From a virus (taxonomy: Duplodnaviria > Heunggongvirae > Uroviricota > Caudoviricetes): 7,639 nt of DNA. Of this stretch, positions 3,101 through 6,100 are shown piece by piece. Every line of letters begins with the position of its first letter. The stretch's first letter is position 1. The stretch lies in IMG/VR virus record IMGVR_UViG_2711768075_000006; one strand, given 5' to 3'. The position numbers were made by a program.

Positions 3101-6100
3101 TATTTTATTGCAACTTTTAATCTTTTATAGTGCGAAATAAATGGAGCTGGCATTCATTTCGCACTTTATGTTTTTGTTGGACTTATGTTATTTTGATTGA
3201 ATTCAATTCAGTTAAAAAAAGAAGGTGATTGCTCCATTTATAAATGAATAGTCATCCCCTGTCTTGAATTCTGATGTTACTTTATTAAATGCTAGTGTGA
3301 AGGCTACAGGTGCATACCCAATTGTTGCGCCAACTTGATATTCATCAACAGTTTTGTTTAGCGATACTGTTGTTTGTTTCGTCTGTATTGTTTTTCCTTC
3401 GAGAGTATAGTTGCGATTGACATCTCGTCTTTCCATACCTGCAAAAATCTTGTATTTGAATCCGCTTGTATCGGACATATGCATTAAACCACGGGGAGCC
3501 AGCAGACCAAAGCCATTATCCGAATTGAAGGTTTTATCATTACCAATGGCAATGGTTGCGCCATATGCTACATATTGAAATAAGTTTCCAGTAACAGCAG
3601 AAACTTCAGGGTATAATCCAACATTAGCACCTAAAATATCCATACTTGGTGTCATGGATAGCATCCCTTTTACAGTATAACCGTAGCGATTCTCTATTTG
3701 ATCATCCCATGCATGATATTTTTCTGCCCCAATAATCTCATGAGCTTTATTTTGTACTTTCTGACCGCCTGCGTCGGGGCCAACAACACCTATGTCAGTA
3801 CCTAATCGATAGCGAATCCAGTCATTCGCAAGGGAGTTCCATTCAATACCAGTGTGAGTGTATGCACTAAAAGCTCTGTCTCCAGTTACAGCTGTGTTGT
3901 GTCTTTTATTACTGCCTGATGGAGAGTAAATATCTTGCGCAATATGGAGAGATAATTGGCTCGAGTCTGAGATATCGTGGCTATATCCCAGAAATAAGCC
4001 TTGTGAGTAATCATCTCTGTTTTCATGTTTATTGCCATAAATATCATTAAGTATTGGTTGAAACTTCCCTGCATCATCATTTGCTAATGATAATGCAAGG
4101 CTGTTCGCGATAGCTGAACACGTGGTAAATGACAGAGCAATAAAGACGCCAGCGATGACACTTTTTTTCATATGTTATTGTCTTCCTTTTTTTTGAATGG
4201 TGCGCGTATTTTACATACATGAGTTTGTAATACAAGGTGCGTAATCAATATGATGTTTTATAATTGCGTGAGACAATTGATTTATTCGTTTTTTATTGCG
4301 GTTTTTATTATCTTTTAATGTAACGGTGTTTTTATTAAGTGTGTTTGCGTGGTGTTTTATGTTTTTTATGATTTTTATTTTATTAAATTTAAATGCATTA
4401 GTAATGGCTATTCTATATAGCAATATAAGAACTGTTACAAAAAAAGGGGGGCAATTACAGGTAGTTATGGATGATGAGTGAAACAGATATTGGAGAACCG
4501 GGGAATGAATGATGTCTGAGTCTTATATATCAGAACTCCTTCGCTGTCGCTGGGGGCTCCTGTGCTTATGTCGTTTCCCCGATTCGGTTTTGAACGATTA
4601 CCGAATGTTGAAGAATTATGCCAAAATATAGAAAGGATTTACTGCATGAATACCCAATATTTACAGTATGTTCGTGAGCAACTTATGGCAGCTACTGCTG
4701 ACTTGAACGGAGCAACGAAAGGCCAGCTCGAAGCCTGGCAGGAGCATGCACAATTTGATACTGGTACATACAAACGAAAGAAGCCGCGCATTCTGGATGT
4801 GGTAACTGGCAAGATGATTACGCTGGATAATACGCCGACTTCCGGTAAGCAGTCGTACGCAAAAGGTTCATCCATTGCTTTGGTCAGCCCGGTTGAATTC
4901 TCAACCTCTTCATGGCGCCGCGCGATTTTGTCTCTCGATGAACATCAGAAAGCATGGTTGCTTTGGTGTTACAGCGAAAGCGTTCGATGGGGGCATCAGG
5001 TCACCATAACGCAATGGGCATGGAGCGAGTTTAAAGATTTGTTAAGTAACAGAAAAATTGCAGGTAAGACACTGGATCGCCTGAAGACGTTAATCTGGCT
5101 GGCTGCACAGGATGTGAAGAGCGAACTTGCAGGGCGTGAGGCCTATGAATACCAGACACTGGCATCATTGGTGGGAGTGACAACAAAAAACTGGTCCGAG
5201 ACATTTACTGAACGCTGGGTTGCAATGAAGCACATTTTTCTACAGCTTGATAGTGATGCTTTATTGCTTGTGACGAGAACACGTTCAAAACAAAAGGCAG
5301 CATTTTTACAGAAAAATATTGCAAAACTGGATTAAAAGCCATATACTTCATGCAAATTTGGTATATTGTAAAAAATGTATAAACCCGCTGCCGAGTGGGT
5401 TTTTTTTATGCCCTGAGTTGTACTTGTACGGTAAACATGCTGGCTGCTATGTAATAGAGTTTTTTTAGCCTGTAACCTCTTGACGGCATTGAATTGCTTT
5501 TGTTATGAGTTGTAAGCCAATGTTATCATCTTGTATTGGGGTGGTTATGAAGGATGGTGCGCTGCTCAGGAGTTCTTCACTTTTTATTGCCTACATGGGA
5601 TGCCTTGGATGGGGGAGTGCTTATTTCTATGGATGGGGTACTTCTTTTTACTACGGCTTCCCATGGTGGATTGTAGGTGCAGGTGTTGATGATGTTGCCA
5701 GAAGTTTATTTTTTGCAGTTATTGTCATTGCTATATTTCTTATCGGTTGGGGTATTGGTGTTGTATTCTTTTTCGCAGTGAAAAGAAAACATTCTATGCA
5801 AGAGCTAAATGTATTTCGCCTTTATTTTGCTGTGGAATTATTGTTTGTGCCGGCAATTATTGAGTTTTCTATATTGAGACAGAAGATTCAGGTACCTCTT
5901 TTGCTACTGTCAGCAGCGATTGCGCTGGCGGTTACAATTTCGATAAGATCTTATGGGCGATTTTTATCAGTATCATGCTTCTATGATAAGCCATTTATAA
6001 AAAAACATTTTTTTGAGATTGTGATGATTGCTTTTGTGGCATATTTTTGGCTTTTTTCATTTCTGACAGGATATTACAAACCACAGTTTAAGAAAGAATA

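What the first reader, a model, noticed from the sequence alone, without database searches (positions are those of the whole stretch)
4646..5410. Non-lambda Q-like gene followed by a promoter-like sequence and strong terminator: candidate Q / qut / tR' module
The 229-aa ORF has no lambda-Q zinc-finger cysteines, yet it sits exactly where a replacement Q should be. Within 75 bp of its stop there is a -35-like TTGCAA, an extended -10-like TGgTATATT that could be either promoter or a sigma-dependent pause element, and a strong intrinsic terminator. That layout mirrors pR'-qut-tR' of lambdoid late operons. Size and context fit the phage-82-type Q family, but I cannot confirm this from sequence alone.
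Basis: inference. Interest (0 to 1): 0.55.

Follow-up and report, generated by a model that had tools for sequence, protein, structure and literature searches.

The report
Phage 434 late-gene antitermination switch

Summary
The window is phage 434 DNA (99.8% identical to OL657226). That record already annotates ORF 4646-5335 as a "Q82-like" antiterminator and 5384-5409 as a terminator.

The 229-aa protein matches Pfam PF06323, the Q82 family, at E = 9e-92. It is 88% identical to phage 82 Q, has a single cysteine and no zinc finger.

Alignment with a prophage whose Q is identical to Q82 fixes the cis elements:
- -35: TTGCAA at 5319-5324, inside the last Q codons.
- -10: TATACT at 5342-5347, after a 17-bp spacer.
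- Inferred start: A5354.
It is the sigma70-dependent pause element, not the promoter -10.
- Predicted pause: +25, at T5378.
- Terminator tR': stem 5381-5402 with T run 5400-5407, giving a leader RNA of about 54 nt.

The layout TTGCAA-17-TATAtT-11-TGnTATnnT recurs in about 100 related loci, with Q identity from 59% to 100%, and never in shuffles of the window.

Differences from phage 82 are small: 13 of 61 bases, GTA instead of GCC at +15 to +17, and a terminator placed directly after the pause site. Function is inferred by homology and was not tested. Novelty: already known.

The parts
4634..4637 (+). Ribosome-binding site (AGGA) of the Q gene
   Evidence: Read from the sequence. Annotated as RBS in phage 434 record OL657226 (L001 5235-5238, which is window coordinate + 601).
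4646..5335 (+). Q gene: 229-aa late-gene antiterminator of the Q82 family (phage 434 Q)
5319..5324 (+). pR' -35 hexamer TTGCAA, overlapping Q codons Ile-Ala-Lys
   Evidence: Promoter scan: TTGCAA-17-TATACT. Identical hexamer at the same place in the phage 82-type locus. Mean identity 0.97 across 20 diverged loci, against 0.74 for the flanking bases.
5325..5341 (+). 17-bp -35/-10 spacer, which contains the Q stop codon; probable Q-binding element (QBE)
   Evidence: Inference only. PMC4914094 states that the QBE lies between -35 and -10 and that 82 pR' -31 to +30 contains the QBE plus the pause element. The spacer differs from phage 82 at 2 of 17 positions.
5342..5347 (+). pR' -10 hexamer TATACT
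   Evidence: Aligns with TATATT of 82 pR'. Mean identity 0.92 across diverged loci.
5354..5354 (+). Inferred transcription start (+1, A)
   Evidence: It is the 7th nt after the -10. With this start, the phage 82-type sequence reproduces the published landmarks of 82 pR': GCC at +15 to +17 and U at +25. The window aligns to it without gaps. Not mapped experimentally here.
5359..5367 (+). Sigma70-dependent pause element: extended -10-like TGgTATATT (TG at +6/+7, hexamer at +9 to +14)
   Evidence: Aligns with TGaTATTTT of 82 pR'. PMC5001585 describes the 82 pause element as -10-like with an extended -10. The hexamer starts at +9 in all distinct leader variants examined except one (L010, +8). TAT...T is invariant and TG has identity 0.93.
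5378..5379 (+). Predicted pause site (+25/+26; U at +25 as in phage 82)
   Evidence: By homology with the 82 pR' pause at +25/+26 (PMC5001585). The bases TGTA at +23 to +26 are shared with 82. Uncertain, because +15 to +17 is GTA here rather than GCC.
5381..5409 (+). tR' intrinsic terminator: stem 5381-5402 (+28 to +49), loop GCCG, T run 5400-5407; terminated leader of about 54 nt
   Evidence: Terminator scan. Folding results. Annotated as terminator in OL657226 (L001 5985-6010). The same hairpin type (AACCCGC...GCGGGTT plus a T run) occupies the same position in L006, L014, L017 and L018.
4509..4631 (+). ylcG-like small ORF immediately upstream of Q (context; same arrangement as orf45-Q of phage 82)
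2997..3086 (+). Remnant of a lambda-type Q gene: first 20 codons identical to lambda Q, then unrelated sequence and a stop
   Evidence: Annotated 'antiterminator-like protein, N-terminal fragment' in OL657226.
6693..6720 (+). Second intrinsic terminator inside the late transcription unit, which Q-modified polymerase would also have to pass
   Evidence: Terminator scan: 8-pair stem with 7 GC pairs plus a T run. Annotated as terminator in OL657226 (L001 7294-7322).

Best explanation
The segment is the late-gene control module of coliphage 434 and its many prophage relatives.

Predicted mechanism, step by step:
1. Q (4646-5335) is a phage-82-family antiterminator made from the delayed-early rightward transcript.
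2. The late promoter pR' follows directly: -35 TTGCAA at 5319-5324, overlapping the last Q codons, and -10 TATACT at 5342-5347. It is expected to fire constitutively from A5354.
3. Sigma70 stays on the polymerase and re-binds the extended -10-like element TGgTATATT at +6 to +14. The complex is expected to pause near +25 (T5378).
4. Without Q, the polymerase escapes and terminates at tR' (hairpin at +28 to +49, U tract to +54). This releases a leader RNA of about 54 nt.
5. With Q present, Q bound to its DNA site in the promoter region engages the paused complex, helped by NusA. It travels with the polymerase and makes it resistant to tR' and to later terminators such as 6693-6711.
6. The moron genes downstream are then transcribed. 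So are the lysis and morphogenesis genes, which lie beyond the window in phage 434.

Shown here: family membership, the positions and conservation of the elements, and the terminator structure.
Inferred from phage 82: the start site, the pause, Q binding, NusA dependence and read-through.
For: - Identity of the DNA: 99.8% to phage 434 OL657226. That record has the Q82-like CDS and the terminator annotated, and lysis genes follow 3.7 kb downstream. [quoted passage not shown]
- Protein: PF06323 at E = 9.4e-92, PHROG 304, 88% identity to Q82. All 59 diverse homologues hit PF06323 only.
- Phage 82 reference: a prophage with a Q identical to Q82 gives TTGCAA-17-TATATT, then TGaTATTTT at +6 to +14, GCC at +15 to +17 and U at +25. 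These are the published landmarks of 82 pR' (PMC5001585). The window aligns to it without gaps from -35 to +26, with 48 of 61 bases identical.
- Conservation: the same geometry is found in 102 loci with Q identity from 59% to 100% across Escherichia, Citrobacter, Klebsiella, Raoultella, Enterobacter and others. The -35, -10, TG and TAT..T positions are more conserved than their surroundings.
- Chance: the composite motif occurs once in the window and in 0 of 200 shuffles.
- Terminator.
- Fold: the AF2 model has a C-terminal helix-turn-helix and a poorly ordered N-terminal part. Its best PDB matches are AlpA and lambda Q, as already reported for 82Q (PMC9371919).
Against: - No experiment on phage 434 pR' was found. 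No 5' end, pause or read-through data were available.
- The GC-rich +15 to +17 element is GTA here. Bird et al. showed that in phage 82 this element (GCC) is needed for a long-lived pause: the triple A mutant has a roughly 5-fold shorter half-life (PMC5001585). Pause strength or position may therefore differ.
- The location of the Q82-type QBE was taken from a general statement in PMC4914094. I could not check it at base level because the supplement is not held.
- Generic promoter and terminator scans are not enriched in this region.
Confidence: 0.93

Rival explanations
1. TGgTATATT (5359-5367) is itself the late promoter: an extended -10 promoter that needs no -35. Transcription would start near 5374, just before the terminator hairpin, and there would be no sigma-dependent pause element.
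For: The sequence is a near-consensus extended -10 (TGnTATATT). Extended -10 promoters can work without a -35 (established knowledge).
Against: In phage 82 the homologous element lies at +6 to +14 of a mapped transcript and acts as the pause element (PMC5001585). A full promoter, TTGCAA-17-TATACT, sits 11 bp upstream with fixed spacing in about 100 loci. A start at about 5374 would leave no room for a Q-loading pause before the terminator.
Confidence: 0.04
2. The conserved TTGCAA belongs to an antisense, CII-activated paQ promoter that damps Q expression, as the 434 GenBank record annotates. On this reading it is not the -35 of pR', or not only that.
For: OL657226 annotates a CII site and a 'paQ' -35 on the minus strand at window 5311-5324. 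TTGCAA is a palindrome, so it reads the same on both strands. Lambda and phage 21 have paQ inside Q (for phage 21).
Against: The site was found by a pattern match. The minus strand reads TTGCAATATTTTTC, so the second half-site is TTTC, not TTGY. No -10 is annotated for it. The bases of that second half-site are poorly conserved among relatives, whereas TTGCAA and its 17-bp distance to the -10 are conserved. This reading could coexist with pR' and does not replace it.
Confidence: 0.1
3. The ORF is a degenerate or re-purposed Q relative in a defective prophage. The hairpin at 5381-5409 merely ends the early operon, and late genes are driven from another promoter, for example the promoter-like site at 5500-5529.
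For: Many E. coli copies sit in prophages of unknown viability. A TG-extended promoter-like site lies at 5500-5529. Some relatives carry broken Q genes (L024, L067).
Against: The sequence is that of the viable laboratory phage 434. The ORF is intact, full-length and 88% identical to a biochemically proven antiterminator. The pause element is conserved, which only makes sense for Q loading. The 5500-5529 site is one of 7 such sites against 7.4 expected by chance.
Confidence: 0.02

Closest known systems
Phage 82 Q / pR' / qut / late terminator (Q82 family, Pfam PF06323)
   Same: Same protein family, same length (229 aa) and 88% identity. The same ylcG-like ORF lies upstream. Same -35 TTGCAA, same 17-bp spacer length, same distance from the -10 to an extended -10-like pause element at +6 to +14, and U at +25. 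Same position in the genome, ahead of the lysis genes.
   Different: 13 of 61 bases differ between -35 and +26. The -10 is TATACT against TATATT. The pause hexamer is TATATT against TATTTT. The bases at +15 to +17 are GTA against GCC. Homology ends at about +26. Phage 82 has a non-terminator hairpin at +13 to +37 and its terminator at about +50 to +76, then the holin gene. Phage 434 has the terminator directly at +28 to +49, then 3.7 kb of moron genes.
Phage lambda Q - pR' - qut - tR' (6S RNA); Q-lambda family PF03589
   Different: No detectable sequence similarity (no PF03589 hit). No Cys4 zinc finger. The lambda pause is at +16/17, with the pause element at +1 to +6, and the lambda leader is 194 nt. 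The window keeps only a 20-codon stump of a lambda-type Q, at 2997-3056.
Phage 21 Q module (Q21 family PF06530) and Pseudomonas AlpA
   Different: No sequence similarity. The Q21 QBE and pause element are at other positions. Q21 works without NusA, whereas Q82 is NusA-stimulated (PMC12360218). [quoted passage not shown]
StxS, lambda 6S RNA and IsrK: short RNAs made from antiterminated late promoters
   Same: A constitutive pR' followed at once by tR' should yield an abundant short RNA in lysogens. Such RNAs are documented for lambda, 21, phi80, 82, P22 and the Stx phages (PMC7547250).
   Different: The leader predicted here is only about 54 nt and has no detectable relation to StxS. No Rfam family reaches its threshold (best hit STnc240 at 29 bits against a gathering score of 55). 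No function is known or tested.

Membership tests
Q82 family of lambdoid Q antiterminators (Pfam PF06323) | Sequence match to the family profile above the curated threshold | tested here: met
   PF06323: 307 bits against a cutoff of 25, E = 9.4e-92, profile positions 1-216 of 220. PHROG 304 E = 2.5e-108.
Q82 family of lambdoid Q antiterminators (Pfam PF06323) | Close similarity to the founding member, phage 82 Q | tested here: met
   201 of 229 residues identical, no gaps.
Q82 family of lambdoid Q antiterminators (Pfam PF06323) | Gene lies after the nin region and before the late promoter and lysis genes of a lambdoid phage | tested here: met
   ninB, dam, ninE, ninF, ninG and ninI lie upstream in the window. 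The holin, endolysin and spanin genes lie downstream in phage 434, outside the window.
Q82 family of lambdoid Q antiterminators (Pfam PF06323) | Cognate pR' with an extended -10-like pause element at about +6 to +14 | tested here: met
   Gap-free alignment to the 82-type pR'. Conserved geometry in 102 loci.
Q82 family of lambdoid Q antiterminators (Pfam PF06323) | Sigma70-dependent pause at +25, QBE binding, NusA-stimulated terminator read-through | not testable with these tools
   These need in vitro transcription or reporter assays. They are known only for phage 82 (PMC5001585, PMC4914094).
Q-lambda family (Pfam PF03589) | Profile match and a Cys4 zinc-binding motif | tested here: not met
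   No PF03589 hit even at E <= 10 in any of 59 family members. Only one Cys (C108) is present. Only a 20-codon lambda Q stump lies elsewhere, at 2997-3056.
Q21 family (Pfam PF06530) | Profile match | tested here: not met
Intrinsic (Rho-independent) terminator | GC-containing stem-loop directly followed by a run of U | tested here: met
   9-pair stem (4 GC pairs), 4-nt loop, 8 T; -12.0 kcal/mol. Actual termination was not tested.
Sigma70-dependent promoter-proximal pause element | -10-like hexamer with A at position 2 and T at position 6 in the initially transcribed region, on the non-template strand | tested here: met
   TATATT at +9 to +14, preceded by TG. T9, A10, T11 and T14 are conserved in all relatives. 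Pausing itself was not tested.

The most novel reading that the evidence does not exclude
There are two parts to the most novel reading that remains open.

First, the 434-type qut may be a functionally distinct sub-type of the Q82 system. It lacks the GC-rich +15 to +17 element that phage 82 needs for a long pause. It lacks the post-pause hairpin seen in 82-type relatives. It places the terminator hairpin only 3 nt after the pause site.

Second, the leader RNA of about 54 nt, presumably made constitutively, may act as a trans-acting regulatory RNA in the way StxS does. The module is present at >=99% identity in 618 of 5,426 complete E. coli genomes, including O157:H7.
Probability: 0.1. Interest if true: 0.45.

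Novelty: already known. Interest (0 to 1): 0.12.

Why it matters
It matters little as a discovery. Q-mediated late-gene antitermination is a textbook system. Phage 434 is a classical phage with a published, annotated genome, and its Q is already labelled Q82-like.

The modest value added here is a base-level map of the 434 pR', pause element, predicted pause site and tR'. The GenBank record annotates only the gene and the terminator. The comparative data also show that the -35/-10/pause-element geometry is fixed across the whole Q82 family, while the terminator position is not.

Because no Q82-family structure exists, natural variants such as this one could serve as comparison templates for pausing and Q-loading studies. 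This variant has a different +15 to +17 element and an immediately adjacent terminator.

Tried and rejected
- PDB sequence search with the Q protein: only noise, E >= 0.08. No solved relative exists by sequence.
- NCBIfam: no hit for Q, the downstream membrane protein or LpxR.
- tRNA scan: none in the window. There is no tRNA cluster after Q, unlike phage 21 and the Stx phages.
- Rfam: nothing reaches its threshold. STnc240 (29 bits) over the leader and terminator is mostly terminator plus an A-run, so I do not count it as homology.
- Literature search for the literal pause-element string: it returned only C. elegans primer hits.
- Supplement of PMC4914094, which holds the template sequences with QBE mutations: not held. 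The QBE could not be placed at base level.
I repeated it without that row.
- The fold match to AlpA and lambda Q looked like a possible new link between the three Q families. PMC9371919 had already reported it for 82Q from AlphaFold models, so I dropped it as a novelty claim.
- I ran no further search on profile-profile tests between Q families, because the answer would not change the verdict.
- I considered and rejected TGgTATATT as the promoter -10, and TTGCAA as solely an antisense paQ element (see rival explanations).
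Full report
**What the window is**

Megablast of 4400-5600 against phage records gives Escherichia phage 434 (OL657226.1) at 99.8% identity over 100% of the query. Phage 82 (X92588.1) matches at 89% over the Q gene. The whole 7.6-kb window recurs at >=99.7% identity in many E. coli chromosomes. The module 4646-5410 is present at >=99% identity in 618 of 5,426 complete E. coli genomes, including O157:H7 and O111:H8.

The 434 record annotates the following features (window coordinate = locus L001 coordinate minus 601 in this region):
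- window 4646-5335 as 'transcriptional activator/anti-terminator, Q82-like';
- an RBS at 4634-4637;
- a ylcG-like ORF at 4509-4631;
- a terminator at 5384-5409;
- downstream, a membrane protein, TciB, a small membrane protein, a SASA esterase, and then the holin, endolysin and spanin genes.

[quoted passage not shown] The record does not annotate pR', a QBE or a pause element for 434. The same authors did annotate these for phage 21.

**The observation**

- The ORF is 229 aa and has a single Cys (C108).
- TTGCAA is at 5319-5324. This is inside the ORF, 9 nt before the stop at 5333-5335.
- TGGTATATT is at 5359-5367.
- The terminator stem is 5381-5402 (9 pairs, GCCG loop), with a run of eight T at 5400-5407. 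The hairpin folds at -12.0 kcal/mol.

The generic consensus scan finds no more promoter-like or terminator-like sites than in shuffles: 7 against 7.4, and 3 against 3.3. The significance therefore comes from the composite arrangement and its conservation. The pattern TTGCAA-N17-TATNNT-N11-TGNTANNNT occurs once in the window and in none of 200 shuffles.

**The protein**

Pfam PF06323 matches at E = 9.4e-92 over nearly the full profile. PHROG 304 'anti-termination protein Q-like' matches at E = 2.5e-108. PF06323 is the Q82 family in the three-family classification of Q proteins (PMC9388147, PMC7171158).

The protein is 88% identical (201 of 229 residues, no gaps) to phage 82 Q. The family is small: 171 clusters at 50% identity in 1.8 billion representatives. 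All 59 diverse full-length members hit only PF06323, plus weak helix-turn-helix (HTH) profiles in a few. None hits PF03589 or PF06530. No relative has a solved structure by sequence.

An AF2 model built on a 59-sequence alignment has mean pLDDT 88:
- residues 82-227 form a confident helical body, including a helix-turn-helix at about 169-190;
- residues 20-80 are poorly defined.

**The cis elements**

The phage 82 GenBank fragment stops at the Q stop codon. I therefore took two E. coli prophages whose Q gene is 100% identical to Q82. Their downstream sequence reads TTGCAA-17 bp-TATATT. Taking the 7th base after the -10 as +1, it continues with TGaTATTTT at +6 to +14, GCC at +15 to +17 and T at +25.

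These are the landmarks Bird et al. give for 82 pR': a -10-like pause element with an extended -10, a GCC 'discriminator' at +15 to +17, a pause at +25/+26, and U at +25 (PMC5001585).

The window aligns to this sequence without gaps from -35 to +26, with 48 of 61 bases identical. That gives:

| Element | Window coordinates | Position |
|---|---|---|
| -35 TTGCAA | 5319-5324 | -35 to -30 |
| -10 TATACT | 5342-5347 | -12 to -7 |
| start, A | 5354 | +1 |
| TG | 5359-5360 | +6, +7 |
| pause hexamer TATATT | 5362-5367 | +9 to +14 |
| predicted pause, T | 5378 | +25 |
| terminator stem | 5381-5402 | +28 to +49 |
| end of U tract | 5407 | +54 |

**Comparative support**

I fetched two sets of related loci:
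- 20 loci from species-representative genomes, with Q identity of 59-71%: Citrobacter, Klebsiella, Raoultella, Enterobacter, Leclercia, Franconibacter and others;
- 80 viral contigs with Q identity of 86-100%.

Every locus with sequence beyond Q shows -35, a 17-bp spacer, -10, 11 bp, and then an extended -10-like element. There are two spacing exceptions, each of 1 bp.

In a 20-locus diverged set (window, the phage 82-type locus L003 and 18 of the genome loci), mean column identity is as follows:

| Region | Mean identity |
|---|---|
| -35 hexamer | 0.97 |
| six bases upstream of the -35 | 0.74 |
| spacer | 0.74 |
| -10 hexamer | 0.92 |
| TG | 0.93 |
| +27 to +45 | 0.50 |

T9, A10 and T11 are invariant and T14 is nearly so. 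The residues encoded over the -35 hexamer (Ile/Leu-Ala-Lys) are kept while neighbouring C-terminal residues vary. This fits a DNA-level constraint.

**What differs from phage 82**

- Homology ends right after +26.
- 82-type loci carry a non-terminator hairpin at about +13 to +37 and a terminator at about +50 to +76, followed by the holin gene.
- The 434 type puts the terminator where that hairpin would be. L006, L014, L017 and L018 independently do the same. Phage 21 likewise has its terminator directly after the start site, so this is not unusual among lambdoid phages.
- The bases at +15 to +17 are GTA, not GCC. In phage 82, changing GCC to AAA shortens the pause about 5-fold, so the 434 pause may be weaker or shifted. 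Its hexamer is closer to consensus (TATATT against TATTTT), which may compensate. This is inference.
- Most 99%-identical relatives have TATGTT instead of TATATT.

**Mechanism**

By homology (PMC4914094, PMC5001585, PMC9388147, PMC12360218), the predicted sequence of events is:
1. pR' fires constitutively.
2. Sigma70 re-binds the -10-like element and the complex pauses near +25.
3. Without Q, transcription ends at tR', giving an RNA of about 54 nt.
4. With Q, the protein bound at its DNA site engages the paused complex with help from NusA. For phage 82 the site lies within -31 to +30 and is said to sit between -35 and -10.
5. The polymerase becomes termination-resistant. It reads through tR' and the second terminator at 6693-6711 into the morons and the lysis genes.

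None of these activities was or could be tested here.

**Replacement history**

Immediately after the ninI phosphatase gene, a 29-codon ORF (2997-3086) begins with 20 codons identical to lambda Q. DNA homology to lambda stops at about 3066. A lambda-type Q was therefore displaced by a block carrying lpxR (minus strand, 3212-4171; PF09982), ylcG and the Q82-type module.

**Rivals**

- An extended -10 promoter reading of TGgTATATT is contradicted by the phage 82 data and by the conserved upstream promoter.
- The paQ/CII annotation on the palindromic TTGCAA in the 434 record rests on a pattern match with an imperfect second half-site. It could at most coexist with pR'.
- A defunct-gene reading is contradicted by the viability of phage 434 and by the intact, conserved ORF.

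**Verdict**

The module is an ordinary, already known member of the Q82-type late control systems.

Noticed in passing
window 2997-3086 (+): A 29-codon ORF whose first 20 codons are identical to the N-terminus of lambda Q. DNA homology to lambda ninI-Q ends at about 3066. It is the scar of a lambda-type Q gene displaced by the lpxR-ylcG-Q82-type block.
   Followed up: yes
window 3212-4171 (-): A 319-aa LpxR-family outer-membrane lipid A deacylase gene (PF09982, E = 7e-40) lies on the opposite strand between the nin region and Q. Rightward early transcription must cross it antisense to reach Q. An inverted repeat, GTGCGAAAT...ATTTCGCAC at about 3131-3165, lies just beyond its 3' end.
   Followed up: partly
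L003 about 3201-3225 (phage 82-type prophage), and the same position in L005, L007-L010, L012, L013, L015, L016, L019-L024: 82-type relatives carry a non-terminator inverted repeat or RNA hairpin right after the pause element (+13 to +37). Its stem sequence differs between lineages (TGCCA..TGGCA, ATGCTGCC..GGCGGCAT, GTCG..CGAC). Folding z-scores are -2 to -4 in most lineages and weak in the GTCG lineage. It is absent from the window, where the terminator occupies that place. Its function is unknown to me.
   Followed up: partly
window 5365 (4th base of the pause hexamer): The window and phage 434 have TATATT. About 45 near-identical viral contigs have TATGTT. This is a polymorphism inside the sigma70-binding pause element that keeps the critical A at position 2 and T at position 6.
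   Followed up: partly
window 6518-6722 (+) and 5342-5411 (+): There are two sub-threshold Rfam matches. One is STnc100 (41.4 bits, gathering score 47, E = 1.7e-6), spanning the small ORF and the terminator at 6693-6711. The other is STnc240 (29.3 bits, gathering score 55), over the pR' leader and tR'. The first may mark a prophage-borne sRNA-like 3' region. The second looks like terminator plus A-run similarity only.
   Followed up: no
window 5505-6752 (+): A moron block lies between tR' and the lysis genes. It holds a 252-aa multi-pass membrane protein (PHROG 1521, no Pfam hit), a TciB/DUF3927-like 52-aa ORF (6349-6507), a 62-aa membrane ORF (6564-6752) with a strong terminator inside it (6693-6711), and then the start of a SASA-family esterase that runs off the window. 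A TG-extended promoter-like site at 5500-5529 could express the block in lysogens.
   Followed up: no
window 5311-5324 (-): The phage 434 GenBank record places a CII-binding site and a 'paQ' -35 on the minus strand, exactly over the palindromic TTGCAA that serves as the pR' -35. The second half-site reads TTTC rather than TTGY.
   Followed up: partly
L073, L094, L095, L102 (viral contigs), +27 onwards: A third kind of downstream sequence follows an 82-type qut. It has no terminator-like hairpin within the first 110 nt of the leader.
   Followed up: no
L024 (Leclercia) and L067 (viral contig): These Q-family genes are interrupted by a premature stop. In L024 the pR'/pause motif is still intact downstream. 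They are probably decaying prophages.
   Followed up: no
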